Shown piece after piece: positions 1,501-43,949 of a stretch of 64,000 nt of DNA. The notes below the pieces were generated by a model. It ran no database searches. It was given only the letters and a program-made list of their open reading frames with translations, and was not told where the DNA came from. How positions within the stretch are numbered: position 1 is the first letter of the stretch; every line of letters starts with the position of its first letter. The translations under genes and the position numbers were made by a program. The stretch is from the human T2T-CHM13v2.0 reference genome, Homo sapiens. The stretch lies in the NCBI RefSeq assembly GCF_009914755.1, contig NC_060933.1; one strand, 5' to 3'.

Positions 1501-4209
1501 AATGGAATGGAATGGAATCAAATGGAATGGAATGGAATCAACGCGAGTGCAGGGGAATGGAATGGAATGGAATGCAATTGAATGGAATCTTCCGGAATGG
1601 AATGGGATGGAATGGAATGGAATGGAATGGAATGGAATCAACCCGAGTGCAATGGAATGGAGTGGAATGGAATGGAATGGAATGGAACAACCCGAATGGA
1701 ACGGAATGTAATGGAGAGTAAGGGAGTTGAATAGAATCAATCCGAATGTAATGGAATGGAATGGAACGGAATGGAATGGAATGGAATGGAATGGAATGCA
1801 ATGGAATGGAATCAACCCGAGTTCAATGGAATGGAGAGGAATGGAATGGAATGGAATGGAAACTACCCGAATGGAATGGAATGTAATGGAGTGTAAGGGA
1901 ATTGAATAGAATCAATCCGAATGTAATGGAATGGAATGGAACGGAATGGAATGGAATGGAATGCAATGGAATGGAATCAACCCGAGTGCAATCGAATGGA
2001 ATCGAATGGAATGGAATGCAATGGAATGGATTCAACTTGAATGGAATGGAAAGAATGGAATCAACACGAGTGGAATGGCATGGATTGGAATGGAATGGAT
2101 TGGAATCAACCCGAGTACAGGGGAATGGAATGGAATGGAATGGAATGGAATGGAATGGAATGGAATTGAATGGAATGGAATGCCTTCAAACCGAATGGAA
2201 TGGAAAGGAATGGAATCAACACGAGTGGAAAGGAATGGAATGGAAAGGAATGGTACGGAATAGAATGGAATGGAACGAACTGGAATGGAATGGAATGGAA
2301 TGGAATGGAATGGAATGGAATGGAATGGAATCGTTCCGAGTGGAATAGCTGGGAATGTATTCGAGTGGAATGGAAAGGAATGGAATCAACCAGAGTGGAA
2401 TGGAAGGGAATGGAATGGAATGGAAACTAATAGAATGGAATCAACCCGAGTGGAATGGAATGGAAAGGACTGGAGTGGAATGGAATGGAATGGAATGGAA
2501 TGGAATCAACTCGATTGTAAAGGAATGTATTGGAATGGAATGGAATGGAATGGAATGGAATGGAATTGACCCGAATACAATGGAATGGAATGGAATGGAA
2601 AGGAATGGAGTGGAATGGAATGGAATCAACCCGAGTGCAGGGGAATGGAATGGAATGGAATGCAATGGAATGGAATCATCCGGAATGGAATGGAATGGAA
2701 TGGAATGCAAAGCAATGGAATCAACTCGATTGCAATGGAATGGAATGGAATAGAATGGAATAGAATGGAATCAACCCGAGTGTAATGGAATGGAAAGGAC
2801 TGGAATGTAGTGGAATGGAATGGAATGGAATGGAATCAACTCGATTGGAATGGAATGGAATGGAATGGAATGGAATGGAATTAACCTGAATAGAATGGAA
2901 TGGAATGGAATGGAATGGAACGGAATGGAATGCAGTGGAATGGAATGGAATGGAATGGAATGGAATGGAATGGAATCAACCCGACTGCAGGGGAATGGAA
3001 TGGAATGGAATGGAATCATCCGGAACGGAATGGAATGGAATGGAATGGAATCAACTCGATGGCAATGGAATGGAATGGAATGGAATGGAATGGAATGGAA
3101 TCGAATGGAATGGAATGGAATTAACCGGAATAGAATGCAATGGAATGGAATGGAACGGAATGGAATGGAATGGAATGGAATGGAATCGAATGGAATCAAC
3201 CCGAGTGCAGGGGAATGGAATGGAATGGAATCCAATGGAATGGAATCATCCGGAATGGAATGGAATGGAATGGAATGCAATCAACCTGATGCAATGGAAT
3301 GGAGTGGAATGGAATGGAATGGAATGGAAACATCCCGAATGGAATGGAATGTAATGGAGTGTAAGGGAATTGAATAGAATCAATCCGAATGTAATGGAAT
3401 GGAATGGAATGGAATGGAATGGAATGGAATGGAATGGAATCAACCCGAGTGCAATGGAATGGATTCGAATGGATTGGAATGGAATGGATTCAATAAGAAT
3501 GGAATGGAAAGGAATGGAATCAACCCGAGTGTAATGGCATGGAATGGAACAGAATGGAATGGGATGGAATGGAATGGTACGGAATAGAATGGAATGGAAT
3601 GAAATGGAATGGAATGGAATGGAACGGAATGGAATGGAATGGAATGGAATGAACCCGTGTGCAATGGAATGGAATGGAATGGAATGGAATGGATTCAACT
3701 CGAATGGAATCAACTCGATTGCAATGGAATGGAATGGAATTGAAAGGAATAGAATGGAATCAACCCGAGTGGAATGGAATGGAAAGGACTGGAATGGAGT
3801 GGAATGGAATGGAATGGAATTAACCCGAATAGAATGAAATGGGACGGAATGGAATGGAATGTAATGGAATGGAATGGAATGGAATCAACCTGAGTGCAGG
3901 GGAATGGAATGGAATGGAATGCAATGGAATGGAATCATCCGGAATGGAATGGAATGGAATGGAATGGAATGGAATGGAATGGAATCAACTCGATTTCAAT
4001 GGAATGGAATGGAATAGAATGGAATGGAATTAACACGAATAGAATGGAATGGAATGGAATTGAATGGAACAGAAAGGAATGGAATGGAATGGAATGGAAT
4101 CAACCTAAGTGCAGGAGAATGGAATGGAATGGAATTCAATGGAATGGAATCATCCGGAATGGAATGGAATGGAATGGAATGGAATGGAATGGAATGGAAT
4201 TGAATGGAA

Positions 4210-5700
4210 TCAACCCGAGTGCAATGGAATGGAGAGGAATGGAATGGAATGGAATGGAAACTACACGAATGGAATGGAATGTAATGGAGTGTAAGGGAAT
4301 TGAATAGAATGAATCCGAATGGAATGGAATGGAAAGGAATGGAATGGAATGGAATGGAATGGAATGGAATGCAATGCCATGGAATCAACCCGAGTGCAAT
4401 CGAATGGAATCGAATGGAATGGAATGCAATGGAATGGATTCAACTTGAATGGAATGGAAAGAATGGAATCAACACGAGTGGAATGGCATGGATTGGAATG
4501 GAATGGAATAGAATCAACCCGAGTACAGGGGAATGGAATGGAATGGAATGCAATGGCATGGAATCATCCGTAATGGAATGGAAAGGAATGGAATGGAATG
4601 GAATGGAATGGAATGGAATGGAATGGAATCAATTCGATTGCAATCGAATGGAATGGAATGGAATTAACCCGAATAGAATGGAATGGAATGGAACGGAACG
4701 GAACGGAACGGAATGGAATGGAATGGAATGAAACGGAAAGGAATGGAATGGAACGGAATGGAATGGAATGGAATGGAATGGAATCAAAGCGAGTGCAGGG
4801 TAATGGAATGTAATGGAATGCAATGGAATGGAATCTTCCGGAATGGAATGGAATGGAATGGAATGGAATCAACCCGAGTGCAATGGAATGGAGTGGAATG
4901 GAATGGAATGGAATGGAACAACCCGAATGGAATGGAATGTAATGGAGAGTTAGGGAGTTGAATAGAATCAATCCGAATGTAATGGAATGGAATGGAATTG
5001 AATGGAATGCAATGGAATGCAATGGAATGGCATCAACCCGAGTGCAATGGAATGGAGAGGAATGGAATGGAATGGAATGGAAACTACCCGAATGGAATGG
5101 AATGTAATGGAGTGTAAGGGAATTGAATAGAATCAATCCGAATGTAATGGAATGGAATGGAACGGAATGGAATGGAATGGAATGGAATGGAATGGAATGG
5201 AATGCAATGGAATGGAATCAACCCGAGTGCAATCGAATGGAATCGAATGGAATGGAATGCAATGGAATGGATTCAACTTGAATGGAATGGAAAGAATGGA
5301 ATCAACACGAGTGGAATGGCATGGATTGGAATGGAGTGGAATGGAATCAACCCGAGTACAGGGGAATGGAATGGAATGGAATGCAATGGAATGGCATCAT
5401 CCGTAATGGAATGGAAAGGAATGCAATGGAATGGAATGGAATGGAATGGAATGGAATGGAATGGAATCAACTCGATTGCAATCGAATGGAATGGAATGGA
5501 ATTAACCCGAATAGAATGGAATGGAATGGAATGGAACGGAACGGAATGGAATGGAATGGAATGGAATGGAATGGAACGGAACGGAATGGAATGGAATGGA
5601 ATGGAATGAAATGGAATCAACGCGAGTGCAGCGGAATGGAATGGAATGGAATGCAATGGAATGGAATCTTCCGGAATGGAATGGAATTGAATGGGATGGA
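4210..5700 (+). repeat. Direct repeat, copy 2 of 1-1500
   Basis: Same word order and rare variants as 1-1500; offset drifts between ~4194 and 4209 through pentamer-count changes. Confidence 0.85.
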
Positions 5701-6494
5701 ATGGAATGGTAGGGAATAAACCCGAGTGCAATGGAATGGAGTGGAATGGAATGGAATGGAATGGAACAACCCGAATGGAAAGGAATGTAATGGAGACTAA
5801 GGGAGTTGAATAGAATCAATACGAATGTAATGGAATGGAATGGAACGGAATGGAATTGAATGAAATGGAATGGAATACAATGGAATGGAAACTTCCGGAA
5901 TGGAATGGAATGGAATGGAATGGAATGATATGCAATGGATTCAACTCGATTGCAATGGAATGGAATAGAACGGAATGGAATGGCATGGAATGGAATTAAT
6001 CCGAATAGAATGGAATTGAATGGAATGGGATTAACCTGAATAGAATGGAATGGAATGGAATGGAACGGAATGGAATGGAATGGAATGGAATGCAATGGAA
6101 TGGAATGGAACGGAATGGAATGGTATGGAATGGAATGGAATGGTACGGAGTAGAATGGAATGGAACGAATTGTAATGGAATGGAATTGAATGGAATGGAA
6201 TGGAATGGAATGGAATCAACGCGAGCGCAGGGGAATGTAATGGAACGGAATGCAATGGAATGGAATCATCCGGAATGGAATGGAATGGAATGGAATAGAA
6301 TGGAATGGAATGGAATCAACCCGAGTGCAATGGAATGGAGTGGAATGGAATGGAATGGAATGGAACAACCCGAATGGAATGGAATGTAATGGAGAGTAAG
6401 GGAGTTGAATAGAATCAATCGGAATGTAATGGAATGGAATGCAACGGAATGGAATGGAATGGAATGCAATGGAATGGAATGGAATGCAAAGGAA

Positions 6495-7888
6495 TGGAAT
6501 CAACCTGAGTGGAATGGCATGGAATGGAATGCAATGGAATGGAATGGAAAGAAATCAACTCGAGTGGAAAGGAATGGAATGGAATGGAAAGGAATGGAAT
6601 GAAATCAACTCGAGTGGAATGGAATGGAATGGATTGGAATGGATTGCAATGGAATGAAATGGAATGGAATGGAATGGAATCAATCATTCCGAGTGGAATG
6701 GAAGGGAATGTAATGGAGTGGAAAGAAGGGAATGGAATCAACCCGATTGGAATGCAAGGCAATGGAATGCAATGGAATGGAACGGAATGGAATGGAATAG
6801 AAGGTAATGGAATCAACACGAGTGCAGGGGAATGGAATGGAATGGAATGCAATGGAATGGAATCATCCAGAATGAAATGGAATGGAATGGAATCAACTCC
6901 ATTGCAATGGAATGGAATGGAGTGGAATGGAATGGAATAGAATGGAATGGAATTAACCCGTATAGAATGGAATGCAATAGAATGGAATGGAACGGAACCG
7001 AATGGATTGGAATGGAATGGAATGGAATCAACCTGAGTGCAGGGGAATGGAATGGAATGGAATGCAATGGAATGGAATCATCCGGAATGGAATGGAATGG
7101 AATGGAATGGAATCAAACCCAGTGCAATGGAATGGAGTGAAATGGAATGGAATGGAATGGAAACAACCAGAATGGATTGGAATATAATGGAGTGTTAGGG
7201 AATTGAATAGAATCAATCTGAATGTAATGAAATGGAGTGGAACGGAATGGAATGGAATGGAATGGAATCGAATGGAATGGAATGGAATGGAATGAACCTG
7301 AGTGGAATGGCATGGAATGGAATGCAATGGAATGGAATGGAATGGAATGGAATAGTTCGGAATAGAATGGATTGGAACAAAATGGAATGGAATGGAATGG
7401 AATGGAATGGAATGGAATGGAATAGAATGGAATGGAATGGAATCAAGTCGATTGCAGTGGAATAGAATGGAGTGGAATGGAATGGATTGCAATGGAATGG
7501 AATGGAATGGAATGGAATTAAATGGAATGGAAAGGAATGGAATCAACCCGAGTGCAGGGGAAAGGAATGGAATGGAATGCAATGGAATAGAATGGAATGG
7601 AATGGAATGGAATCAACCCGAGTGGAATGGCATGGAATGGAATGCAAAGGAATGGAATGGAACGGAATCAACTAGAGTGGAAAGGAATGGAATGGAATGG
7701 AAAGGAATGGAATGAAATCAACTCGAGTGGAATGGAATATAATGGAATGGATTGGAATGGATTGCAATGGAATGAAATGGAATGGAATGGAATGGAATCA
7801 ATCATTCCGAGTGGAATGGAAGGGAATGTAATGGAGTGGAAAGAAGGGAATGGAATCAACCCGAGTGGAATGCAAGGCAATGGAATGG
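6495..7888 (+). repeat. Dispersed ~280-bp duplication of a divergent module (6495-6770 and 7608-7888)
   Basis: Both contain CAATCATTCCGAGTGGAATGGAAGGGAATGTAATGGAGTGGAAAGAAGGGAATGG and GAATGCAAGGCAATGG; offset ~1113-1118. Confidence 0.85.
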
Positions 7889-8745
7889 AATGGAAAGGAA
7901 TGGAATGGAATCAACTCGATTGCAATCGCATGGAATGGAATGGAATGGAATGGAAAGGAATGGAATGGAATGAAATGGGATGGAATGGAATGCAATGGAA
8001 TGGAATCAACCCGAGTGCAATCGAATGGAATCGAATGGAATGGAATGCAATGGAATGGATTCAACTTGAATGGAATGGAAAGAATGGAATCAACACGAGT
8101 GGAATGGCATGGATTGGAATGGAATGGAATGGAATCAACCCGAGTACAGGGGAATGGAATGGAATGGAATGCAATGGAATGGAATCATCCGTAATGGAAA
8201 GGAAAGGAATGGAATGGAATGGAATGGAATGGAATGGAGTGGAATCAACTCGATTGCAATCGAATGGAATGGAATGGAATTAACCCGAATAGAATGGAAT
8301 GGAATGGAATGGAACGGAACGGAACGGAATGGAATGGAATGGAATGGAATGGAATGGAATGGAATGGAATGGAATCTTCCGGAATGGAATGGAATGGAAT
8401 GGAATCAACTCGAGTGCAATGGAGTGGAGTGGAATGGAATGGAATGGAATGGAACAACCTGAATGGAATCGAATGTAATGGAGAGTAAGGGAGTTGAATA
8501 GAATCAATCCAAATGTAATGGAATGGAATGGAACGGAATGGAATTGAATGGAATGGAATGGAATGCAATGGAATGGAATCAACCCGAGTGCAATGGAATG
8601 GAGAGGAGGGGAATGGAATGGAGTGGAAACTACCCGAATGGAATGGAATGTAATGGAGTGTAAGGGAATTGAATAGAATCAATCCGAATGTAATGGAATG
8701 GAATGGAACGGAATGGAATGGAATGGAATGGAATGGAAAGAAGGG

Positions 8746-8773
8746 AATGGAATCAACCCGAGTTGATTCCATT
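8746..8773. other. Satellite inversion breakpoint forming a 28-bp quasi-palindrome
   Basis: AATGGAATCAAC-CCGA-GTTGATTCCATT: 12-bp arms are exact reverse complements, centred on CG at 8759/8760, with one mismatched pair (8758/8761). GGAAT runs lie to the left and ATTCC runs to the right. Confidence 0.95.
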
Positions 8774-11232
8774 GCTTTGCATTCCGTTCCATTCCATTCC
8801 TTTTCATTGTATTCGGGTTAATTCCATTGCATTCCATTCCATTCCTTTCCATTCCATTCCATTCCATTACAATGGAGTTGATTCCATTCCATTCCATTCC
8901 ATTCCATTCCATTCCATTCTAGTCCTTTCCATTCCATTCCACTCGGGTTGATTCCATTCTATTAGTTTCCATTCCATTCCATTCCTTTCCATTGCACTCT
9001 GGTTGATTCCATTCCTTTCCATTTCACTCGAATACATTCCCTCCTATTCCACTCGGAACGATTCCATTCCATTCCATTCCATTCCATTCCATTCCATTCC
9101 AGTCCATTCCATTTCGTTCCATTCCATTCTATTCCGTACCATTCCATTCCATTCCATTCCATTGCATTCGATTCCATTCCACTCGTGTTGATTACATTCC
9201 TTTCCATTCCATTCAGTTTGAAGGCATTCCATTCCATTCAATTCCATTCCATTCCATTCCATTCCATTCCATTCCATTCCATTCCATTCCATTCCATTGT
9301 ACTCGGGTTGATTCCATTCCATTGCATTCTATTCCATTCCATTCCATTCCATTCCATTCCATTCAATTCCATTCCATTCCGGATGATTCCATTCCATTGC
9401 ATTCCATTCCATTCCATTCCCCTGCACTCGGGTTGATTACATTCCATTCCCTTCCCTTCCATTCCTTTCCATTCCATTCCATTCCATTCTATTCGGGTGA
9501 ATTCCATTCCATTCCATTCCATTCCATTCCATTCCATTGCAATCGAGTTGATTCCATTACATTCCATTCCATTCCGTTCCGGATGATTCCATTCCATTGC
9601 ATTCCATTCCATTCCATTCCCCTGCACTCGGGTTGATTCCATTCCATTCCATTCCATTCCATTCCATTCTATTCCATTCCGTTCCATTCCATTCCATTCC
9701 ATTCTATTCGGGTTAATTCCATTCCATTCCTTTCCATTCCATTCCAATCGAGTTAATTCCATTCCATTGCATTCCATTCCACTCCATTCCAGTCCTTTCC
9801 ATTCCATTCCACTCGGGTTGATTCCATTCTATTCCTTTCCATTCCATTCCATTGCAATCGAGTTGATTCCATTGCATTGCATTCCATTCCATTCCATTCC
9901 ATTCCGGATGATTCCATTCCATTGCATTCCATTCCATTCCATTCCCCTGCACTCGGGTTGATTCCATTCCATTCCACTCCATTCCGTTCCATTGCATTCC
10001 ATTCCATTGTATTCGGGTTAATTCCATTCCATTCCATTCCATTCCATTCCATTCCATTCCATTCCATTCCATTCCATTCCATTACAATCGAGTTGATTCC
10101 ATTCCATTCCATTCCATTCCATTATATTCCATTCCATTCCATTACATTCCATTCCATTCCTTTCCATTCCATTCCACTCGGGTTGATTCCATTCTATTAG
10201 TTTCCATTCCATTCCATTCCCTTCCATTCCACTCTGGTTGATTCCATTCCTTTCCATTCCACTCGAATACATTCCCTCCTATTCCCTCGGAACAATTCCA
10301 TTCCATTCCATTGCATTCTATTCCATTCCATTCCGTTCCATTCCATTCTATTCCATACCATTCCATTCCATTCCATTCCATTCCATTCCATTCCATTCCA
10401 TTCCACTCGTGTTGATTCCATTCCTTTCCATTCCATTCGGTTTGAAGCCATTCCATCCCATTCAATTCCATTCCATTCCTTTCCATTCCATTTCGGATCA
10501 TGCCATTCCATTGCTTTCCATTCCATTCCATTCCCCTGTACTCAGGTTTATTCCATTCCATTCCATTGCAATCTATGGCATTCCACTCGTGTTGATTCCA
10601 TTCTTTCCATTCCATTCTAGTTGAATCCATTCCATTGCATTCCATTCCATTCGATTCCATTCGATTGCACTCGGGTTGATTCCATTCCATTCCATTCCAT
10701 TCCATTCCATTCCATTCCATTCCGTTCCATTCCATTCCATTACTTTCGGATTGATTCTTTTTAACTCCCTTACTCTCCATTACATTCCATTCCATTCGGG
10801 TTCTTCCATTCCATTCCATTCCATTCCACTCCATTCCATTGCACTCGGGTTGATTCCATTCCATTGCATTCCATTCCATTCCATTCCATTCCATTCCATT
10901 CCGGATGATTCCATTCCATTGCATTCCGTTCTATTACATTCCCCTGCAATCGCGTTGATTCCATTCCATTCCATTCCATTCCATTCGATTCCATTCCATT
11001 CCAATTCGTTCCATTCCATTCTATTCCGTACCATTCCATTCCATTCCATAGCATTCCATTCCATTCCATTCCATTCCATTCCTTTCCATTCCGTTCTATT
11101 CCGTTCCATTCGATTCCATTCCATTCCATTCTATTAGGGTTAAATCCATTCCATTCCATTCCATTCCATTCTATTCCATTCCATTGCAATCGAGTTGAAT
11201 CCATTGCATTCCATTCCATTCCATTCCATTCC

Positions 11233-11247
11233 ATTCCGGAAGATTCC
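11233..11247. promoter_or_regulatory. Perfect 3-unit heat-shock element, inverted-block form
   Basis: aTTCc-gGAAg-aTTCc; recurs at e.g. 12291, 16706, 24386, 27646, 35223, 40342, 53421, 61783, 63521 and 63781. Confidence 0.55.
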
Positions 11248-14200
11248 ATTCCATTGCATTCCATTCCATTCCATTCCATTCCATTCCCCTGCACTCGCGT
11301 TGATTCCATTCCATTCAATTCCATTCCATGCCATTCCATTCCGTTCCGTTCCGTTCCATTCCATTCCATTCCATTCCATTCCGTTCCGTTCCATTCCATT
11401 CCATTCCATTCTATTCGGGTTAATTCCATTCCATTCCATTCGATTGCAATCGAGTTCATTCCATTCCATTCCATTCCATTCCATTCCATTCCATTCCTTT
11501 CCATTCCATTACTAATGATTCCATTCCATTGCATTCCATTCCATTCCATTCTCCTGTACTCGGGTTGATTCCATTCCATTCCATTCCATTCCATGCCATT
11601 CCACTCGTGTTGATTCCATTCTTTCCATTCCATTCAAGTTGAATCCATTCCATTGCATTCCATTCCATTCGATTCCATTCGATTGCACTCGGGTTGATTC
11701 CATTATATTGCATTCCATTCCATTCCATTCCATTCCATTCCATTGTACTCGGGTTGATTCCATTCCATTGCATTCCATTCCATTCCATTCCGTTCCATTC
11801 CATTCCATTACATTCGGGTTGATTCTATTCAACTCCCTTACTCTCCATTACGTTCCATTCCATTCGTGCTGTTCCATTCCATTCCATTCCATTCCACTCC
11901 ATTGCATTGCACTCGGGTTGATTCCAATCCATTCCATTCCATTCCATTCCATTCCGGATGATTCCATTCCATTGCATTCCGTTCCATTAAATTCGCCTGC
12001 ACTCGGGTTGATTCCATTCCATTCCATTCCATTCCATATCATTCCATTCGATTCCATTCCATTCCAATTCTTTCCATTCCATTCTATTCCGTACCATTCC
12101 ATTCCATTCCATACAATTCCATTCCATTCCTTTCCATTCCATTCCATTCCGTTCCGTTCCGTTCCGTTCCGTTCCATTCCATTCCATTCCATTCTATTCG
12201 GGTTAAATCCATTCCATTCCATTCCATTCTATTCCACTCCATTGCAATCGAGTTGAATCCATTGCATTCCATTCCATTCCATTCCAATCCATTCCGGAAG
12301 ATTCCATTCCATTGCATTCCATTCCATTCCATTCCCCTGCACTCGCGTTGAATCCATTCCATTCCATTCCATTCCATTCCATTCCATTCCATTCCATTCC
12401 TTTCCGTTCCATTGCATTCCATTCCATTCCATTCCCTTCCATTCCGTTCCGTTCCATTCCATTCCATTCCATTCTATTGGGGTTAATTCCATTCCATTCC
12501 ATTTGATTACAATCGAGTTGATTCCAATCCATTCCAATCCATTCCATTCCATTCCATTCCTTTCCATTCCATTACGGATGATTCCATTCCATTGCATTCC
12601 ATTCCATTCCATTCCCCTGTACTTGGGTTGATTCCATTCCATTCCATTCCAATCCATGCCATTCCACTCGTGTTGATTCCATTCTTTCCATTCCATTCAA
12701 GTTGAATCCATTCCATTGCATTCCATTCCATTCGATTCCATTCGATTGCACTCGGGTTGATTACATTCCATTGCATTCCATTCCATTCCATTCCATTCCA
12801 TTCCATTCTATTCCGTTCCATTCCATTCCATTACATTCGGATTGATTCTTTTCAACTCCCTTACTCTCCATTACATTCCATTCCATTCGGGTTGTTCCAT
12901 TCCATTCCATTGCATTCCACTCCATTCCATTGCACTCGGGTTGATTCCATTCCATTCCATTCCATTCCATTCCATTCCATTCCATTCCATTCCCCTGCAC
13001 TCGCGTTGATTCCATTCCATTCCATTCCATTCCATTCCATTCCTTTCCGTTCCATTCCATTCCATTCCATTCAATTCCGTTCCGTTCCATTCCATTCCAT
13101 TCCATTCTATTCGGGTTAATTCCATTCCATTCCATTCGATTGCAATCGAGTTGATTCCATTCTATTCCATTCTATTCCATTCCATTCCATTCCATTCCAT
13201 TCCATTCCTTTCCATTCCATTCCGGATGATTCCATTCCATTGCATTCCGTTCCATTACATTCCCCTGCACTCGGGTTGATTCCATTCCATTCCATTCCAT
13301 TCCATTCCATTCCATTCCATTCCATTCCAATTCTTTCCTTTCCATTCTATTCCGTACCATTCCATTCCATTCCATTCCATTCCATTTCATTCCATTCCAT
13401 TCTATTCCGTACCATTCCATTCCATCCCATTCCATTCCATTCCATTCCATGCCATTACACTCGGGTTCATTCCATTCCTTTCCATTCCATTCTTGTTGAA
13501 TCCATTCCATTCCATTCCATTCGATTCCATTCCATTGCACTCCGGTTGATTCCATTCCATTCCATTCCATTCGATTTCATTCCATACCATTCCATTACAT
13601 TCGGATTGATTCTATTCAATTCCCTTACACTCCATTACATTCCATTCCATTCGGGATGTTTCCATTCCATTCCACTCTATTCCATTGCATCGGGTTGATT
13701 CCATTCCATTCCATTCCATTCCATTCAATTCCATTCCATTCCATTCCATTCGATTCCGGATGATTCCATTCCATTGCATTCCATTCCATTCCATTCCCCT
13801 GCACTCGGGTTGATTACTTTCCATTCCCTCCCCTTCCATTCCTTTCCATTCCATTCCATTCCATTCTATTCGGGTGAATTCCATTCCATTCCATTCCATT
13901 CCATTCCATTCCATTCCATTCCATTCCATTTCATTCCATTCCATTCCATTGCAATCGAGTTGATTCAATTCCATTCCATTCCATTCCGTTCCAGATGATT
14001 CTATTCCATTGCATTCCATTCCATTCCATTCCCCTGCACTCGGGTTGATTCCTTTCCATTCCATTCCATTCCATTCCATTCTATTCCATTCCGTTCCATT
14101 CCATTCCATTTCATTCTATTTGGGTTAATTCCATTCCATTCCATTCCATTCCATTCCAATCGAGTTGATTCCATTCCATTCCATTCCATTCCACTCCATT

Positions 14201-14989
14201 CCAGTCCTTTCCATTCCATTCCACTCGGGTTGATTCCATTCTATTCCTTTCCATTCCATTCCATTGCAATCGAGTTGATTCCATTGCATTGCATTCCATT
14301 CCATTCCATTCCATTCCGGATGATTCCATTCCATTGCATTCCATTCCTTTCCATTCCCCTGCACTCGGGTTGATTCCATTCCATTCCACTCCATTCCGTT
14401 CCATTCCATTCCATTCCATTGTATTCGGGTTAATTCCATTCCATTCCATTCCATTCCATTCCATTCCATTACAATCGAGTTGATTCCATTCCATTCCATT
14501 CCATTCCATTCCATTCAATTCCTTTGCATTCCATTCCACTCGGGTTGATTCCATTCTATTAGTTTCCATTCCATTCCATTCCCTTCCATTCCACTCTGGT
14601 TGATTCCACTCCTTTCCATTCCACTCGAATACATTCCCTCTTAATCCACTCGGAACAATTCCATTCCATTCCATTCCATTCCATTCCATTTCGTTCCATT
14701 CCATTCTATTCCGTACCATTCCATTCCATTCCATTCCATTCCATTTCATTCCATTGTACTCGGGTTGATTCCATTCCATTGCATTCCATTCCATTCCATT
14801 CAATTCCATTCCGTTCCATTCCATTCCATTACATTCGGATTGATTCTATTCAACTCCCTTACTTTCAATTACATTCCATTCCATTCGGATTGATTGTATT
14901 CAACTCCCTTACTCTCCATTACATTCCATTCCATTCGGGTTGTTCCATTCCTTTCCATTCCTTTCCACTCCATTCCACTGCACTCGGGT

Positions 14990-15955
14990 TGATTCCATTC
15001 CATTCCATTCCATTCCATTCCATTCTGGATGATTCCATTCCATTGCATTCCGTTCTATTACATTTCCCTGCACTCGCGTTGATTCCATTCCATTCCATTC
15101 CATTCGATTCCATTCCATTCCAATTCGTTCCATTCCATTCTATTCCGTACCATTCCATTAAATTCCATGCCATTCCATTCCATTCCATTCTATTCCATTC
15201 CATTCCATTCCGTTCTATTCCGTTCCATTCCATTCCATTCCATTCTATTAGGGTTAATTCCATTCCATTCCATTCCATTCCATTCTATACCATTCCATTG
15301 CAATCGAGTTGAATCCATTGCATTCCATTCCATTCCATTCCATTCCATTCCATTACGGAAGATTCCATTCCATTGCATTCCATTCCATTCCATTCCATTC
15401 CCCTGCACTCGCGTTGATTCCATTCCATTCCATTCCATTCCATTCCATTCCATTCAATTCCATTCCATTCCATTCCATTCGATTCCGGATGATTCCATTC
15501 CATTCCATTCCATTCCATTCCATTCCATTCTGGATGATTCCATTCCATTGCATTCCGTTCCATTACATTTCCCTGCACTCGCGTTGATTCCATTCCATTC
15601 CATTCCATTCCATTCCATTCCATTCCAATTCGTTCCATTCCATTCTATTCCGTACCATTCCATTAAATTCCATGCCATTCCTTTCCATTCCATTCTATTC
15701 CATTCCATTCCATTCCGTTCTATTCCGTTCCATTCCATTCCATTCCATTCTATTAGGGTTAATTCCATTCCATTCCATTCCATTCCATTCTATACCATTC
15801 CATTGCAATCGAGTTGAATCCATTGCATTCCATTCCATTCCATTCCATTCCATTCCATTCCGGAAGATTCCATTCCATTGCATTCCATTCCATTCCATTC
15901 CCCTGCACTCGCGTTGATTCCATTCCATTCCATTCCATTCCATTCCATTCCATTC
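14990..15955 (-). repeat. ~505-bp tandem duplication nested in block X (also in X' at ~23520-24485)
   Basis: TCTGGATG, CATTTCCCTG, CATTAAATTCCATGCC, CTATTAGGGTTAA and CTATACC each recur at +505. Confidence 0.9.
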
Positions 15956-17792
15956 CGTTCCGTTCCGTTCCGTTCCGTTCCATTCCATTCCATTCCATTC
16001 CATGCCATTCCGTTCCGTTCCATTCCATTCAATTCCATTCTATTCGGATTAATTCCATTCCATTCCATTTGATTGCAATCGAGTTGATTCCATTCCATTC
16101 CATTCCATTCCATTCCTTTCCATTCCATTACTAATGATTCCATTCCACTGCATTCCATTCCATTCCATTGCATTCCATTCCATTCCATTCCGTTCCATTC
16201 CATTCCATTACATTCGGGTTGATTGTATTCAACTCCCTTACTCTCCATTACATTCCCTTCCATTCGTGTTGTTCCATTCCATTCCATTCCATTCCACTCC
16301 ATTGCATTGCACTCGGGTTGATTCCATTCCATTCCATTCGATTCCATTCCATTCCATTCCATTCCGGATGATTCCATTCCATTGCATTCCGTTCCATTAC
16401 ATTCCCCTGCACTCGGGTTGATTCCATTCCATTCCATTCCATTCCATACCATTCCATTCGATTCCATTCCATTCCAATTCTTTCCATTCCATTCTATTCC
16501 GTACCATTCCATTCCATTCCATACAATTCCATTCCATTCCGTTCCATTCCATTCCGTTCCGTTCCGTTCCGTTCCGTTCCGTTCCATTCCATTCCATTCC
16601 ACTCTATTCGGGTTAATTCCATTCCATTCCATTCCATTCCATTCTATTACATTCCATTGCAATCGAGTTGAATCCATTTCATTCCATTCCATTCCATTCC
16701 ATTCCATTCCGGAAGATTCCATTCCATTGCATTCCATTCCATTCCATTCCCCTGCACTCGCGTTGATTCCATTCCATTCCATTCCATTCCATTCCATTCC
16801 TTTCCGTTTCATTCCATTCCATTCTATTCCATTCCATTCCATTCCGTTCCGTTCTGTTCCATTCCATTCCATTCCATTCTATTCGGGTTAATTCCATTCC
16901 ATTCCATTCCATTCGATTACAATCGAGTTGATTCCATTCCATTCCATTCCATTCCTTTCCATTCCATTACGGATGATTCAATTCCATTGCATTCCATTCC
17001 ATTCCATTCCCCTGTACTCGGGTTGATTCCATTCCATTCCATTCCAATCCATGCCATTCCACTCGTGTTGATTCCATTCTTTCCATTCCATTCAAGTTGA
17101 ATCCATTCCATTGCATTCCATTCCATTCGATTCCATTCGATTGCACTCGGGTTGATTCCATGGCATTGCATTCCATTCCATTCCATTCCATTCCATTCCA
17201 TTCCATTCCATTCCATTCCATTCGGATTCATTCTATTCAATTCCCTTACACTCCATTACATTCCATTCCATTCGGGTAGTTTCCATTCCATTCCATTCCA
17301 TTCCTCTCCATTCCATTGCACTCGGGTTGATTCCATTCCATTCCATTCCATTCCATTCCATTCCATTCCGGATGATTCCATTCCATGGAATTCCATTCCA
17401 TTCCATTCCCCTGCACTTGGGTTGATTCCATTCCATTCCATTCCATTCCTTTCTGTTCCATTCTATTCCATTCCATTCCATTCTATTCTTGTTAATTCCA
17501 TTCCATTCTATTCCATTCCATTCCATTGAAATCGAGTTGATTCCATCCCATTCCATTCCATTCCATTCCATTCCATTCCATTCCATTCTGGATGATTCCA
17601 TTCCATTGCATTCCATTCCATTCCATTCCCCTACACTCGGGTTGATTCCATTCCATTCCATTCCATTACATTCCGTTCCATTCCGTTCCATTCCATTCTA
17701 TTCGGGTTAATTCCATTCCATTCCATTCCACTCCATTCCAGTCCTTTCCATTCCATTCCATTCTATACCATTCCATTGCAATCGAGTTGAAT

Positions 17793-20700
17793 CCATTCCA
17801 TTCCATTCCATTCCATTCCATTCCATTCCATTCCATTGTACTCGGGTTGATTCCATTCCATTGCATTCTATTCCATTCCATTCCATTCCATTCCATTCCA
17901 TTCAATTCCATTCCATTCCGGATGATTCCATTCCATTGCATTCCATTCCATTCCATTCCCCTGCACTCGGGTTGATTACATTCCATTCCCTTCCCTTCCA
18001 TTCCTTTCCATTCCATTCCATTCCATTCTATTCGGGTGAATTCCATTCCATTCCATTCCATTCCATTCCATTCCATTGCAATCGAGTTGATTCCATTACA
18101 TTCCATTCCATTCCGTTCCGGATGATTCCATTCCATTGCATTCCATTCCATTCCATTCCCCTGCACTCGGGTTGATTCCATTCCATTCCATTCCATTCCA
18201 TTCCATTCTATTCCATTCCGTTCCATTCCATTCCATTCCATTCTATTCGGGTTAATTCCATTCCATTCCTTTCCATTCCATTCCAATCGAGTTAATTCCA
18301 TTCCATTGCATTCCATTCCACTCCATTCCAGTCCTTTCCATTCCATTCCACTCGGGTTGATTCCATTCTATTCCTTTCCATTCCATTCCATTGCAATCGA
18401 GTTGATTCCATTGCATTGCATTCCATTCCATTCCATTCCATTCCGGATGATTCCATTCCATTGCATTCCATTCCATTCCATTCCCCTGCACTCGGGTTGA
18501 TTCCATTCCATTCCACTCCATTCCGTTCCATTGCATTCCATTCCATTGTATTCGGGTTAATTCCATTCCATTCCATTCCATTCCATTCCATTCCATTCCA
18601 TTCCATTCCATTACAATCGAGTTGATTCCATTCCATTCCATTCCATTCCATTATATTCCATTCCATTCCATTACATTCCATTCCATTCCTTTCCATTCCA
18701 TTCCACTCGGGTTGATTCCATTCTATTAGTTTCCATTCCATTCCATTCCCTTCCATTCCACTCTGGTTGATTCCATTCCTTTCCATTCCACTCGAATACA
18801 TTCCCTCCTATTCCCTCGGAACAATTCCATTCCATTCCATTGCATTCTATTCCATTCCATTCCGTTCCATTCCATTCTATTCCATACCATTCCATTCCAT
18901 TCCATTCCATTCCATTCCATTCCATTCCATTCCACTCGTGTTGATTCCATTCCTTTCCATTCCATTCGGTTTGAAGCCATTCCATCCCATTCAATTCCAT
19001 TCCATTCCTTTCCATTCCATTTCGGATCATGCCATTCCATTGCTTTCCATTCCATTCCATTCCCCTGTACTCAGGTTTATTCCATTCCATTCCATTGCAA
19101 TCTATGGCATTCCACTCGTGTTGATTCCATTCTTTCCATTCCATTCTAGTTGAATCCATTCCATTGCATTCCATTCCATTCGATTCCATTCGATTGCACT
19201 CGGGTTGATTCCATTCCATTCCATTCCATTCCATTCCATTCCATTCCATTCCGTTCCATTCCATTCCATTACTTTCGGATTGATTCTTTTTAACTCCCTT
19301 ACTCTCCATTACATTCCATTCCATTCGGGTTCTTCCATTCCATTCCATTCCATTCCACTCCATTCCATTGCACTCGGGTTGATTCCATTCCATTGCATTC
19401 CATTCCATTCCATTCCATTCCATTCCATTCCGGATGATTCCATTCCATTGCATTCCGTTCTATTACATTCCCCTGCAATCGCGTTGATTCCATTCCATTC
19501 CATTCCATTCCATTCGATTCCATTCCATTCCAATTCGTTCCATTCCATTCTATTCCGTACCATTCCATTCCATTCCATAGCATTCCATTCCATTCCATTC
19601 CATTCCATTCCTTTCCATTCCGTTCTATTCCGTTCCATTCGATTCCATTCCATTCCATTCTATTAGGGTTAAATCCATTCCATTCCATTCCATTCCATTC
19701 TATTCCATTCCATTGCAATCGAGTTGAATCCATTGCATTCCATTCCATTCCATTCCATTCCATTCCGGAAGATTCCATTCCATTGCATTCCATTCCATTC
19801 CATTCCATTCCATTCCCCTGCACTCGCGTTGATTCCATTCCATTCAATTCCATTCCATGCCATTCCATTCCGTTCCGTTCCGTTCCATTCCATTCCATTC
19901 CATTCCATTCCGTTCCGTTCCATTCCATTCCATTCCATTCTATTCGGGTTAATTCCATTCCATTCCATTCGATTGCAATCGAGTTCATTCCATTCCATTC
20001 CATTCCATTCCATTCCATTCCATTCCTTTCCATTCCATTACTAATGATTCCATTCCATTGCATTCCATTCCATTCCATTCTCCTGTACTCGGGTTGATTC
20101 CATTCCATTCCATTCCATTCCATGCCATTCCACTCGTGTTGATTCCATTCTTTCCATTCCATTCAAGTTGAATCCATTCCATTGCATTCCATTCCATTCG
20201 ATTCCATTCGATTGCACTCGGGTTGATTCCATTATATTGCATTCCATTCCATTCCATTCCATTCCATTCCATTGTACTCGGGTTGATTCCATTCCATTGC
20301 ATTCCATTCCATTCCATTCCGTTCCATTCCATTCCATTACATTCGGGTTGATTCTATTCAACTCCCTTACTCTCCATTACGTTCCATTCCATTCGTGCTG
20401 TTCCATTCCATTCCATTCCATTCCACTCCATTGCATTGCACTCGGGTTGATTCCAATCCATTCCATTCCATTCCATTCCATTCCGGATGATTCCATTCCA
20501 TTGCATTCCGTTCCATTAAATTCGCCTGCACTCGGGTTGATTCCATTCCATTCCATTCCATTCCATATCATTCCATTCGATTCCATTCCATTCCAATTCT
20601 TTCCATTCCATTCTATTCCGTACCATTCCATTCCATTCCATACAATTCCATTCCATTCCTTTCCATTCCATTCCATTCCGTTCCGTTCCGTTCCGTTCCA

Positions 20701-23700
20701 TTCCATTCCATTCCATTCTATTCGGGTTAAATCCATTCCATTCCATTCCATTCTATTCCACTCCATTGCAATCGAGTTGAATCCATTGCATTCCATTCCA
20801 TTCCATTCCAATCCATTCCGGAAGATTCCATTCCATTGCATTCCATTCCATTCCATTCCCCTGCACTCGCGTTGAATCCATTCCATTCCATTCCATTCCA
20901 TTCCATTCCATTCCATTCCATTCCTTTCCGTTCCATTGCATTCCATTCCATTCCATTCCCTTCCATTCCGTTCCGTTCCATTCCATTCCATTCCATTCTA
21001 TTGGGGTTAATTCCATTCCATTCCATTTGATTACAATCGAGTTGATTCCAATCCATTCCAATCCATTCCATTCCATTCCATTCCTTTCCATTCCATTACG
21101 GATGATTCCATTCCATTGCATTCCATTCCATTCCATTCCCCTGTACTTGGGTTGATTCCATTCCATTCCATTCCAATCCATGCCATTCCACTCGTGTTGA
21201 TTCCATTCTTTCCATTCCATTCAAGTTGAATCCATTCCATTGCATTCCATTCCATTCGATTCCATTCGATTGCACTCGGGTTGATTACATTCCATTGCAT
21301 TCCATTCCATTCCATTCCATTCCATTCCATTCTATTCCGTTCCATTCCATTCCATTACATTCGGATTGATTCTTTTCAACTCCCTTACTCTCCATTACAT
21401 TCCATTCCATTCGGGTTGTTCCATTCCATTCCATTGCATTCCACTCCATTCCATTGCACTCGGGTTGATTCCATTCCATTCCATTCCATTCCATTCCATT
21501 CCATTCCATTCCATTCCCCTGCACTCGCGTTGATTCCATTCCATTCCATTCCATTCCATTCCATTCCTTTCCGTTCCATTCCATTCCATTCCATTCAATT
21601 CCGTTCCGTTCCATTCCATTCCATTCCATTCTATTCGGGTTAATTCCATTCCATTCCATTCGATTGCAATCGAGTTGATTCCATTCTATTCCATTCTATT
21701 CCATTCCATTCCATTCCATTCCATTCCATTCCTTTCCATTCCATTCCGGATGATTCCATTCCATTTCATTCCGTTCCATTACATTCCCCTGCACTCGGGT
21801 TGATTCCATTCCATTCCATTCCATTCCATTCCATTCCATTCCATTCCATTCCATTCCAATTCTTTCCTTTCCATTCTATTCCGTACCATTCCATTCCATT
21901 CCATTCCATTCCATTTCATTCCATTCCATTCTATTCCGTACCATTCCATTCCATCCCATTCCATTCCATTCCATTCCATGCCATTACACTCGGGTTAATT
22001 CCATTCCTTTCCATTCCATTCTTGTTGAATCCATTCCATTCCATTCCATTCGATTCCATTCCATTGCACTCCGGTTGATTCCATTCCATTCCATTCCATT
22101 CGATTTCATTCCATACCATTCCATTACATTCGGATTGATTCTATTCAATTCCCTTACACTCCATTACATTCCATTCCATTCGGGATGTTTCCATTCCATT
22201 CCACTCTATTCCATTGCATCGGGTTGATTCCATTCCATTCCATTCCATTCCATTCAATTCCATTCCATTCCATTCCATTCGATTCCGGATGATTCCATTC
22301 CATTGCATTCCATTCCATTCCATTCCCCTGCACTCGGGTTGATTACTTTCCATTCCCTCCCCTTCCATTCCTTTCCATTCCATTCCATTCCATTCTATTC
22401 GGGTGAATTCCATTCCATTCCATTCCATTCCATTCCATTCCATTCCATTCCATTCCATTTCATTCCATTCCATTCCATTGCAATCGAGTTGATTCAATTC
22501 CATTCCATTCCATTCCGTTCCAGATGATTCTATTCCATTGTATTCCATTCCATTCCATTCCCCTGCACTCGGGTTGATTCCTTTCCATTCCATTCCATTC
22601 CATTCCATTCTATTCCATTCCGTTCCATTCCATTCCATTTCATTCTATTCGGGTTAATTCCATTCCATTCCATTCCATTCCATTCCAATCGAGTTGATTC
22701 CATTCCATTCCATTCCATTCCACTCCATTCCAGTCCTTTCCATTCCATTCCACTCGGGTTGATTCCATTCTATTCCTTTCCATTCCATTCCATTGCAATC
22801 GAGTTGATTCCATTGCATTGCATTCCATTCCATTCCATTCCATTCCGGATGATTCCATTCCATTGCATTCCATTCCTTTCCATTCCCCTGCACTCGGGTT
22901 GATTCCATTCCATTCCACTCCATTCCGTTCCATTCCATTCCATTGTATTCGGGTTAATTCCATTCCATTCCATTCCATTCCATTCCATTCCATTACAATC
23001 GAGTTGATTCCATTGCATTCCATTCCATTCCATTCCATTCCATTCAATTCCTTTGCATTCCATTCCACTCGGGTTGATTCCATTCTATTAGTTTCCATTC
23101 CATTCCATTCCCTTCCATTCCACTCTGGTTGATTCCACTCCTTTCCATTCCACTCGAATACATTCCCTCTTAATCCACTCGGAACAATTCCATTCCATTC
23201 CATTCCATTCCATTCCATTTCGTTCCATTCCATTCTATTCCGTACCATTCCATTCCATTCCATTCCATTCCATTTCATTCCATTGTACTCGGGTTGATTC
23301 CATTCCATTGCATTCCATTCCATTCCATTCAATTCCATTCCGTTCCATTCCATTCCATTACATTCGGATTGATTCTATTCAACTCCCTTACTTTCAATTA
23401 CATTCCATTCCATTCGGATTGATTGTATTCAACTCCCTTACTCTCCATTACATTCCATTCCATTCGGGTTGTTCCATTCCTTTCCATTCCTTTCCACTCC
23501 ATTCCACTGCACTCGGGTTGATTCCATTCCATTCCATTCCATTCCATTCCATTCTGGATGATTCCATTCCATTGCATTCCGTTCTATTACATTTCCCTGC
23601 ACTCGCGTTGATTCCATTCCATTCCATTCCATTCGATTCCATTCCATTCCAATTCGTTCCATTCCATTCTATTCCGTACCATTCCATTAAATTCCATGCC

Positions 23701-25177
23701 ATTCCATTCCATTCCATTCTATTCCATTCCATTCCATTCCGTTCTATTCCGTTCCATTCCATTCCATTCCATTCTATTAGGGTTAATTCCATTCCATTCC
23801 ATTCCATTCCATTCTATACCATTCCATTGCAATCGAGTTGAATCCATTGCATTCCATTCCATTCCATTCCATTCCATTCCATTACGGAAGATTCCATTCC
23901 ATTGCATTCCATTCCATTCCATTCCATTCCCCTGCACTCGCGTTGATTCCATTCCATTCCATTCCATTCCATTCCATTCCATTCAATTCCATTCCATTCC
24001 ATTCCATTCGATTCCGGATGATTCCATTCCATTCCATTCCATTCCATTCCATTCCATTCTGGATGATTCCATTCCATTGCATTCCGTTCCATTACATTTC
24101 CCTGCACTCGCGTTGATTCCATTCCATTCCATTCCATTCCATTCCGTTCCATTCCAATTCGTTCCATTCCATTCTATTCCGTACCATTCCATTAAATTCC
24201 ATGCCATTCCTTTCCATTCCATTCTATTCCATTCCATTCCATTCCGTTCTATTCCGTTCCATTCCATTCCATTCCATTCTATTAGGGTTAATTCCATTCC
24301 ATTCCATTCCATTCCATTCTATACCATTCCATTGCAATCGAGTTGAATCCATTGCATTCCATTCCATTCCATTCCATTCCATTCCATTCCGGAAGATTCC
24401 ATTCCATTGCATTCCATTCCATTCCATTCCCCTGCACTCGCGTTGATTCCATTCCATTCCATTCCATTCCATTCCATTCCATTCCGTTCCGTTCCGTTCC
24501 GTTCCGTTCCATTCCATTCCATTCCATTCCATGCCATTCCGTTCCGTTCCATTCCATTCAATTCCATTCTATTCGGATTAATTCCATTCCATTCCATTTG
24601 ATTGCAATCGAGTTGATTCCATTCCATTCCATTCCATTCCATTCCTTTCCATTCCATTACTAATGATTCCATTCCACTGCATTCCATTCCATTCCATTGC
24701 ATTCCATTCCATTCCATTCCGTTCCATTCCATTCCATTACATTCGGGTTGATTCTATTCAACTCCCTTACTCTCCATTACATTCCCTTCCATTCGTGTTG
24801 TTCCATTCCATTCCATTCCATTCCACTCCATTGCATTGCACTCGGGTTGATTCCATTCCATTCCATTCGATTCCATTCCATTCCATTCCATTCCGGATGA
24901 TTCCATTCCATTGCATTCCGTTCCATTACATTCCCCTGCACTCGGGTTGATTCCATTCCATTCCATTCCATTCCATACCATTCCATTCGATTCCATTCCA
25001 TTCCAATTCTTTCCATTCCATTCTATTCCGTACCATTCCATTCCATTCCATACAATTCCATTCCATTCCGTTCCATTCCATTCCGTTCCGTTCCGTTCCG
25101 TTCCGTTCCGTTCCATTCCATTCCATTCCACTCTATTCGGGTTAATTCCATTCCATTCCATTCCATTCCATTCTATT
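17793..25177 (-). repeat. ~7.4-kb segmental block X' (copy 2)
   Basis: Differs from X mainly by whole-pentamer indels and a handful of substitutions. Similarity ends at ...CATTCTATT (16648/25177). Confidence 0.95.
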
Positions 25178-26730
25178 CCCTACCATACCATTCCATCCCA
25201 TTCCATTCCGTTCCATTCCATTCCATTACACTCGGGTTGATTCCATTCCTTTCCATTCCATTCTTGTTGAATGCATTCTATTCCATTCCATTCCATTCGA
25301 ATCCATTCCATTGCACTCGGGTTGATTCCATTCCATTCCATTCCATTCCATTTCATTCCATTCCATTCCATTACATTCGGATTGATTCTATTCAATTCCC
25401 TTACACTCCATTCCATTCCATTCCATTTGGGATGTTTCCATTCCATTCTATTCCATTCCACTCCATTCCATTGCATCAGGTTGATTGCATTCCTTTCCAT
25501 TCCATTCCATTCCGGATGATTCCATTACATTGCATTCTATTCCATTCCATTCCCCTGCACTCGGGTTGATTCCATTCCATTCCATTCCATTCCATTCCAT
25601 TCCATTCCGTTCCGTTCCGTTCCATTCCATTCCATTGCATTCTATTCCGGTTAATTCCATTCCATTCCATTCGATTCCATTCCATTCCATTCCATTCAAT
25701 TGCAATCGAGTTGATTCCATTCCATTCCATTCCATTCCGTTCCGGATGATTCCATTCCATTCCATTCCATTCCATTCCATTCCCCTGCAGTCGGGTTGAT
25801 TCCATTCCATTCGATTCCATTCCGTTCCATTCCATTCCATTCCATTCTATTCGGGTTAATTACATTGCATTCCATTCCATTCCTTTCCATTCCATTGCAT
25901 TCCAATCGAGTTGATTCCATTCCATTCCATTCCATTCCATTCCACTCCATTCCAGTCCTTTCCATTCCATTCCACTCGGGTTGATTCCATTCTATTCCTT
26001 TCCATTCCATTCCATCCCATTGCAATCGAGTTGATTCCATTGCTTTGCATTCCATTCCATTCCATTCCATTCTGGATGATTCCATTCCATTGCATTCCAT
26101 TCCATTCCATTCCCCTGCACTCGGGTTGATTCCATTCCATTCCACTCCATTCCGTTCCATTCCATTCCATTCCATTGCATTTTATTCGGGTTAATTCCAC
26201 TCCATTCCATTCCATTCCATTCCATTCCATTCCATTACAATCGAGATGATTCCATTCCATTCCATTCCATTCCATTCCATTCCATTCTATTCCAGTCCTT
26301 TCCATTCCATTCCACTCGGGTTGATTCCATTCTATTAGTCTCCATTCCATTCCATTCCCTTCCATTCCACTCTGGTTGATTCCATTCCTTTCCATTCCAC
26401 TCGAATACATTCCCTCCTATTCCACTCGGAACGATTCCATTCCATTCCATTCCATTCCATTTCATTCCATTCCATTCCAATTCGTTCCATTCCATTCTAT
26501 TCCGTACCATTCCATTCCATTCCATTACTTTCCATTCCATTCCATTCCACTCGTGTTGATTCCATTCCTTTCCATTCCATTCGGTTTGAAGGCATTCCAT
26601 TCCATTCAATTCCATTCCATTCCATTGCATTCTATTCCATCCCATTCCATTCCATTGTACTCGGGTTGATTCCATTCCATTGCATTCCATTCCATTCCAT
26701 TCCATTCCATTCCATTCCATTCCGTTGCAT

Positions 26731-27440
26731 TCCATTCCATTACATTCGGATTGATTCTATTCAACTCCCTTACTCTCCATTACATTCCATTCCATTCGGG
26801 TTGTTCCATTCCATTCCATTCCATTCCATTCCATTCCATTCCATTCCATTGCACTCGGGTTGATTCCATTCCACTCCATTCCATTCCATTCCATTCCAGA
26901 TGATTCCATTCCATTGCATTCCGTTCCATTACATTCCCCTGCACTCGCGTTGATTCCATTCCATTCCATTCCATTCCATTCAATTCCATTCCATTAAAAT
27001 TCGTTCCATTCCATTCTATTCCGTACCATTCCATTCCATTCCATACAATTCCATTCCATTCCATTCCATTCCATTCCGTTCCATTCCATTCCATTACATT
27101 CGGATTGATTCTATTCAACTCCCTTACTCTCCATTACATTCCATTCCATTCGGGTTGTTCCATTCCATTCCATTCCATTCCATTCCATTCCATTCCATTG
27201 CACTCGGGTTGATTCCATTCCACTCCATTCCATTCCATTCCATTCCGGATGATTCCATTCCATTGCATTCCGTTCCATTACATTCCCCTGCACTCGCGTT
27301 GATTCCATTCCATTCCATTCCATTCCATTCAATTCCATTCCATTACAATTCGTTCCATTCCATTCTATTCCGTACCATTCCATTCCATTCCATACAATTC
27401 CATTCCATTCCATTCCATTCCATTCCATTCCATTCCATTC
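26731..27440 (-). repeat. ~350-bp tandem duplication
   Basis: TACATTCGGATTGATTCTATTCAACTCCCTTACTCTCC at 26741 and 27095, each followed by the same word series through CATACAATTCC. Confidence 0.85.
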
Positions 27441-43938: not shown

Positions 43939-43949
43939 GGATGTTTCCA
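43939..43949 (-). promoter_or_regulatory. TonE-like (NFAT5/TonEBP) site, representative
   Basis: GGATGTTTCCA is TGGAAACATCC on the minus strand and fits TGGAAANNYNY. Equivalent sites at 42245, 46696, 48726 and 49889. Motif match only. Confidence 0.35.

What the first reader, a model, noticed from the sequence alone, without database searches (positions are those of the whole stretch)
9254..25177. Recent 7.4-kb duplication that is not a simple tandem: X-Y-X'-Z with Y and Z originally adjacent
Seen: X (9254-16648) and X' (17793-25177) are near-identical and separated by 1.14 kb (Y). The distal part of Y (~16900-17760) is the inverted homolog of ~3770-4650. Z (from ~25170) resumes as the inverted homolog of ~3590 down to ~2150 (rare marker CAATCAACCTGATGC at 3278 vs GCATCAGGTTGATTG at 25473). 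Inference: X' was copied into a previously continuous Y-Z unit with loss of ~180 bp, i.e. copy-back-and-return synthesis or conversion rather than a single unequal crossover.
Basis: partly seen in the sequence, partly recalled or inferred. Interest (0 to 1): 0.7.

Follow-up and report, generated by a model that had tools for sequence, protein, structure and literature searches.

The report
Copy-and-return repair scar in satellite DNA
A 7.4-kilobase stretch of satellite DNA on human chromosome 9 is present twice, 1.1 kilobases apart, and the second copy was likely pasted into a small gap by a repair polymerase that jumped back, copied and returned, a known kind of repair scar that can be read here to the base.

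Summary
Observation confirmed. The window is chr9 HSat3 (ATTCC)n. X (9253-16648) and X' (17792-25177) differ by 6 substitutions and 5 pentamer indels in 7.39 kb. Y-G-Z is an ancestral module: 29 of 35 Z-start copies examined carry the Y end a median 177 bp upstream, so about 180 bp (G) was lost. W|X and X|Y are old joins; the joins at Y's end and at X'|Z each occur once in the genome. Corrections: the 'rare' marker has 449 genomic hits, and the left junction is not a plain Y|X' join. It holds a 52-bp piece (17746-17797) identical to a rare motif inside X, 2.0-2.5 kb away. Best reading (0.72): one template-switching repair event (copy and return), with 15-, 6-to-38- and 19-bp microhomologies. 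Rival (0.22): tandem duplication, then a deletion ending by chance within 190 bp of its end. False duplication is unlikely (0.03). No pre-event allele was found in CHM13 and no other haplotype could be read. It is a new member of a known kind (bridge of templated insertions; complex tandem duplication in Arabidopsis centromeres), with no gene nearby.

The parts
1..8753 (-). HSat3 (GGAAT)n arm, opposite orientation to the rest of the window
2073..4890 (-). P: older inverted paralog carrying the intact Y-G-Z module (Y 4890-3771, G about 3769-3583, Z 3582-2073)
   Evidence: 187 bp from Y end to Z start
8744..8770 (.). Inversion junction joined through a shared CGAGT; the same 27-mer is at 42 places on chr9
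8766..9252 (+). W: ancestral left neighbour of X
   Evidence: W|X spanned by 6 of 11 in-window paralogs tested and by 5 of 6 fetched distant copies at about 98%
9253..16648 (+). X: donor copy, 7.39 kb; starts in a pure ATTCC tract
15268..15319 (+). Candidate donor 1 of the junction piece T (first unit of a 505-bp tandem repeat inside X)
   Evidence: 52/52 identical to 17746-17797
15773..15824 (+). Candidate donor 2 of T, 1,973 bp from the junction
   Evidence: 52/52 identical to 17746-17797
16649..17760 (+). Y: single-copy spacer, ancestral continuation of X
   Evidence: X|Y spanned by 7 of 7 in-window paralogs tested, one only briefly
17746..17797 (+). T: 52-bp templated piece at the left junction; 15-bp overlap with Y; 6-bp overlap with X', or 31-36 bp if a G-like ATTCC tract is the bridge
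17792..25177 (+). X': inserted copy of X
25159..25177 (+). 19-bp microhomology between the X end and the end of the lost G segment
   Evidence: 26 of 35 paralogous Z starts share exactly these 19 bp; join unique
25178..26702 (+). Z: resumption of the ancestral Y-G-Z module; two private substitutions within 10 bp of the junction

Best explanation
This is a real 7.4-kb copy (X') inside the chr9 HSat3 array that replaced about 180 bp of an older Y-G-Z unit, and it likely arose in one repair event in which a broken or stalled end paired out of register through short ATTCC-rich homology, copied X and returned to the far side of the gap. Shown: the copy, the lost segment, the old and new joins, the microhomologies and the 52-bp junction piece identical to sequence inside X. 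Inferred: that the joins formed together by template switching (synthesis-dependent strand annealing or microhomology-mediated BIR on the sister chromatid). Read from the Y side: Y end, jump back 2.0-2.5 kb, copy about 50 nt, jump back a further 6.0-6.5 kb, copy 7.39 kb, anneal to Z by 19 bp. The mirror path from the Z side fits equally. I put about 55:45 on the 52-bp piece belonging to the same event rather than being an earlier short gene conversion; in the latter case X' replaced only about 60-110 bp. No function is implied.
For: Two copies at 99.9%. Y-end motif, G motifs and Z start in order in 20 of 28 chr9 loci picked only by the Z marker, Y-end motif in 23 of 28, X-end motif in 0 of 28; 29 of 35 Z starts have the Y end upstream, median 177 bp. 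Old joins W|X and X|Y; in the first 30 of 113 X-end marker hits an AATCGA motif follows as in Y, and none is followed by the Z start (read by eye). New joins unique: 1 hit each. The T motif has 34 genomic hits, 4 in X/X' and 1 at the junction. Isolated rare-motif patches like T number 12 others in about 57 kb, so one falling at either junction by chance is about 3-6% (threshold set after viewing). The two-step route needs a deletion end within 190 bp of the duplication end; from chain lengths I estimate 0.5-2% for that (my arithmetic). Only 3 of 354 paralogous chains in the window are tandem. Same class seen de novo in Arabidopsis centromeres.
Against: No pre-event allele or intermediate was seen: two distant copies followed for 10 kb lose collinearity about 1 kb into X, and the DNA searches scored only 40 of over 4,000 candidates. 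No excess of derived changes in X' (3 in X', 2 in X, 1 ambiguous), so there is no BIR hypermutation signal along the tract. Whether Y and Z come from the same module copy is not shown: similarity to paralogs was uncorrelated (rho 0.03, n 29), although the four lowest Z divergences are loci also close for Y. T plus an X-start-like motif exists as a natural neighbour at 20 other places, and a G-like tract also matches 17785-17822, so T may be an independent patch. The array rearranges densely, which makes multi-step histories cheap.
Confidence: 0.72

Rival explanations
1. Two or more simple events: an 8.5-kb tandem duplication of X-Y by out-of-register exchange or BIR restart in the pure ATTCC tract, then a deletion of Y' and G (about 1.3 kb, or more if Z belongs to a downstream module copy) through the 19-bp homology; T is a separate small conversion.
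For: Both event types are common in satellites (kb-scale de novo gains and losses). Homology blocks in this window are short, at most 2.5 kb at 1-2% divergence. The Y-G-Z module is common, so Z need not be Y's own partner. A 31-36 bp ATTCC homology is available for a simple crossover.
Against: Needs the deletion to end within 190 bp of the unmarked end of the duplicated unit, and T to sit at the junction by chance. No indel over 10 bp has arisen inside X or X' since the copy. P is collinear with Y and Z over about 2.8 kb.
Confidence: 0.22
2. False duplication or mis-walk of the assembly graph in CHM13.
For: The chr9 HSat3 array was one of the hard parts of the assembly graph (PMC9186530 passages). 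Reads could not be checked here.
Against: The copies differ at 11 places spread over 7.4 kb, with derived alleles in both. CHM13 is nearly homozygous. The longest exact repeat is 2.1 kb, far shorter than HiFi reads (read length from my own knowledge). An assembler would not create a 52-bp templated piece or two unique microhomology joins.
Confidence: 0.03
3. Reverse polarity: X' is the old copy and X was inserted upstream.
For: X starts only about 490 bp after an inversion junction.
Against: W|X and X|Y are spanned by paralogs; the joins around X' are unique.
Confidence: 0.02

Closest known systems
Bridge of templated insertions / local n-jump (PCAWG, PMC7025897; passages read)
   Same: Copied templates strung together, returning to the host and leaving a gap; all templates local; low copy gain; clustered breakpoints; read by the authors as one copy-and-paste event.
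   Different: Defined for somatic cancer genomes in unique DNA with a matched normal. Here it is presumably germline, inside a simple satellite, with no matched ancestral allele and no inverted join.
Complex tandem duplications and non-allelic gene conversion in Arabidopsis CEN178 arrays (10.1101/2025.06.02.657473; passages read)
   Same: Kb-scale insertions made of mosaics of nearby units, keeping repeat phase; conversion tracts averaging 58.5 bp from donors a median 16 units away, close to T (52 bp, 2.0-2.5 kb).
   Different: 178-bp monomers, insertions of 1-31 units seen de novo. Here a 5-bp-based human satellite and a 7.4-kb copy inferred from paralogs.
FoSTeS / MMBIR interspersed duplications in human germline CNVs (PMC6258378; passages read)
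   Same: Interspersed duplication, microhomology at joins, small templated insertion, possible new SNVs beside a join.
   Different: Those are patient rearrangements of far larger scale in genic DNA; microhomology there is mostly 2-6 bp, here 6-38 bp and partly built into the satellite.
HSat3B5 array of 9q12 (10.1101/2021.07.12.452052; 10.64898/2026.09.03.749043; passages read)
   Same: (ATTCC)n on chr9 with many strand switches (over 200 with the beta satellite arrays; about 129 per haplotype in the pangenome preprint).
   Different: The passages read describe inversions and array-scale variation, not base-level junctions of kb-scale copies.

Membership tests
Bridge of templated insertions / local n-jump | Copy-number gain of the template segment | tested here: met
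   X present twice; no third near-identical copy among 40 scored candidates
Bridge of templated insertions / local n-jump | Path returns to the host and leaves a gap | tested here: met
   Y and Z flank the insert; about 177-187 bp of G missing by comparison with paralogs. That this Z is Y's own partner is inferred (inconclusive).
Bridge of templated insertions / local n-jump | Novel joins phased on one molecule, with microhomology or templated pieces | tested here: met
   Unique joins; 15, 6-38 and 19 bp overlaps and a 52-bp templated piece; phase taken from the assembly
Bridge of templated insertions / local n-jump | All joins arose in a single event | not testable with these tools
   Needs other haplotypes or a pedigree; supported only by coincidence arguments
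Simple tandem duplication | Copies head to tail, one new join, no loss | tested here: not met
   1.1-kb single-copy spacer, at least two new joins, G lost
BIR / MMBIR product | Excess new mutations in the copied tract or beside joins | tested here: inconclusive
   Derived SNVs 3 in X', 2 in X, 1 ambiguous; two private SNVs within 10 bp of the Z join, about 3-4% by chance at 3% divergence (my arithmetic)
HSat3 (subfamily 3B5) | Diverged (CATTC)n array at chr9 9q12 with internal strand switches | tested here: met
   subfamily name taken by location, not by a k-mer classifier

The most novel reading that the evidence does not exclude
The chr9 HSat3 array is built mainly by multi-switch copy-and-return repair, which scatters 50-bp to 7-kb templated pieces, and not by unequal crossover; this locus is a fresh, base-resolved fossil of a three-switch event, and the array's many inversions are largely a few ancient junctions carried along by the same copying (one 27-bp junction at 42 sites).
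Probability: 0.3. Interest if true: 0.55.

Novelty: new member of a known kind. Interest (0 to 1): 0.33.

Why it matters
How large satellite arrays turn over (unequal exchange, gene conversion or break-induced replication) is an open question (PMC8997354 passages). A young event with readable joins in a human simple satellite gives a direct test: pangenome haplotypes should hold either the unbroken W-X-Y-G-Z allele or this one, and not the full tandem. The locus itself has no gene and no sign of function, and the event class is already described in plants and in cancer genomes, so the value is as a worked example and as a method for parsing HSat3.

Tried and rejected
Self-BLAST timed out on the repeat; k-mer and exact-match scripts replaced it. 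The marker as proof of one-to-one orthology: rejected, 449 hits. A loss of only 60-110 bp (my first reading): holds only if T is an earlier patch; otherwise 168-202 bp. T made from G by edits: needs three 15-bp deletions and a substitution, against an exact donor in X. T from the start of Y: 2-3 mismatches. A pre-event allele in the multi-megabase 9qh+ duplication: 6 of 42 inversion-junction sites fetched, 2 extended by 10 kb; none stays collinear with X beyond about 1 kb. Hypermutation of X': not seen. Shared lineage of Y and Z: inconclusive. Literature: ten searches showed no listing describing this locus or templated insertions in chr9 HSat3; for the gnomAD class name dDUP-iDEL (recalled) found nothing, so it is not cited. 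Most subscription papers are not searched and no supplement was opened; SV tables in the pangenome preprints could bear on this. Earlier scan findings were not available.

Full report
Setting. The whole window is a diverged pentamer satellite: AATGG from 14 to 8753 and ATTCC from 8766 to 63988, with GC skew flipping at the same place. By position it lies in the large chr9 HSat3 array, named HSat3B5 in the Altemose preprint (passages). No gene is annotated.

The duplication. X/X' gives the four strongest self-match diagonals and exact runs of 2,140, 1,130, 1,090 and 821 bp; the next best pair in the window reaches 389 bp. The copies differ by 6 substitutions and 5 indels of one or two pentamers. 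Against paralogs, three substitutions are derived in X' (one weakly), two in X, and one is ambiguous, so both copies have aged alike. Six changes over 7.39 kb give about 35,000, 8,200 or 1,050 generations at 1.17e-8, 4.94e-8 or 3.86e-7 per base per generation (genome-wide, centromeric and Yq12 rates from PMC12240836 passages). The rate for this array is unknown. A DNA search with an internal part of X found only these two near-identical copies among 40 of 4,121 candidates scored.

Were Y and Z adjacent? In the inverted paralog P, Y (16650-17759 against 4890-3771) runs through a segment G into Z (25144-26702 against 3616-2073). That makes it a sampling tool. In the first 28 chr9 loci it brought in, the Y-end motif lies upstream in 23, the main G motif in 27, all four motifs in order in 20, and the X-end motif in none. 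Over all sequence held, 29 of 35 distinct Z starts have the Y end within 300 bp, at 137-212 bp, median 177. So Y-G-Z is an old, common module and about 180 bp is missing here. Because the module is common, I tested whether this Y and this Z share a lineage. Similarity scores to 29 paralogs were uncorrelated (rho 0.03), though the four lowest Z divergences (L032, L034, L038, P) are loci also close for Y. This point stays open.

Which joins are new? X|Y is spanned by 7 of 7 in-window paralogs tested (one only briefly) and W|X clearly by 6 of 11. In the first 30 of 113 genomic hits of the X-end marker, an AATCGA motif follows as in Y, and none is followed by the Z start (read by eye). The X'|Z pattern has one hit in the genome, with 19 bp shared between the X end and the end of G in 26 of 35 paralogs. 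The pattern at Y's end also has one hit. X is therefore the donor and X' the insert.

A third piece. Y matches P exactly up to 17760 and X' matches X exactly from 17792. The bases between are not G. 17746-17797 is a 52-of-52 match to 15268-15319 and 15773-15824 inside X. Its core 27-mer has 34 hits in the genome: four in X/X', one at this junction, six 57-156 kb upstream of the window, the rest megabases away. The overlap with Y is 15 bp and with X' 6 bp. A G-like tract also matches 17785-17822 exactly, which would give a 31-36 bp bridge if T was an earlier conversion inside G. A similar motif followed by the X-start motif occurs at 20 other places, all with a G that this junction lacks. To gauge chance, I listed rare-motif exact matches of 40-110 bp with X' masked: 45 pairs, 14 with poorly matching flanks, two of them T. 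Twelve others in about 57 kb put the chance of one lying at either junction at roughly 3-6%; the threshold was chosen after viewing the list. Z also starts with two substitutions within 10 bp of the join that are private to this locus, which is weak evidence.

Mechanism. One exchange cannot do this: the left switch moves back 8.5 kb and the right one forward about 1.3 kb. The simplest reading is one repair event. An end at Y (or at Z) invades out of register through ATTCC-rich homology, possibly after a short false start that left T, copies X, is displaced and anneals across the gap, losing G. The alternative is a tandem duplication and a later deletion. Homology chains in this window are short (354 chains of 300 bp or more; longest 955 bp below 1% divergence and 2,478 bp at 1-2%; only 3 tandem), so rearrangement is frequent. 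Even so, at 0.08% divergence I estimate 0.5-2% for a breakpoint in a given 190 bp, and no indel above 10 bp has arisen in either copy. I give 0.72 to one event, 0.22 to two or more, 0.03 to assembly error and 0.02 to reverse polarity. Assembly error is unlikely because CHM13 is nearly homozygous (PMC9186530 passages), the copies are distinguishable at 11 places, and the joins carry biological signatures. Reads were not available.

Search for the pre-event allele. The inversion junction just upstream has 42 exact copies on chr9. I fetched six. All six share the junction flanks; five match W and the first 0.9-1.0 kb of X at about 98%. Two were followed for 10 kb more and lose collinearity with X; one shows the Y-G-Z motifs twice without T. 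No pre-event allele was found in CHM13 by these limited looks.

Comparison. The structure meets the descriptive definition of a bridge of templated insertions or local n-jump (PMC7025897 passages), except that single-event origin cannot be tested here. Arabidopsis mutation-accumulation lines show mosaic 'complex tandem duplications' and 58.5-bp conversion tracts from nearby units in centromeric satellite, and BIR with out-of-register restart is a standing model for satellites (PMC8997354 passages). Ten searches of the held library listed no paper on this locus or on templated insertions in chr9 HSat3; I read passages of eight papers, saw the rest as listings only, and opened no supplements.

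Verdict. It is a new member of a known kind with no functional consequence in sight. Interest 0.33.

Noticed in passing
window 8744-8770; G000:C9 51.07-75.68 Mb: The inversion junction 27-mer occurs at 42 places, all on chr9. Six of six fetched copies share both flanks at 92-100%, so these are one old inversion junction amplified by later copying. Many of the array's strand switches may not be independent events.
   Followed up: partly
window 29965-30919 and 33735-34709: Second-youngest copy in the window: 955 bp, 0.42% substitutions, 3.77 kb apart, also not tandem.
   Followed up: no
window 14992-15955 and 26728-27426: Two small true tandem duplications (505-bp and about 350-bp units); the first lies inside X and was copied into X'.
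   Followed up: no
window 41300-49900: Cluster of overlapping 1.3-2.5 kb copies at about 1% divergence, offsets 1.7, 2.0, 2.75, 4.46, 4.77 and 6.48 kb.
   Followed up: no
window, 12 pairs such as 13526/52968, 34665/41527, 53701/57913: Short (42-106 bp) isolated exact matches sharing a rare motif, which look like gene-conversion patches, about one per 5 kb.
   Followed up: partly
window 13379-13660 (and 21908-22190): X itself contains a Z-like module start with the same 19-bp homology block.
   Followed up: no
G000:C9, paired hits at offsets about 8.7 Mb and 10.6 Mb: Pattern and DNA hits fall in pairs at these offsets, in line with the multi-megabase 9qh+ duplication of CHM13; no near-identical partner of this window was found.
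   Followed up: partly
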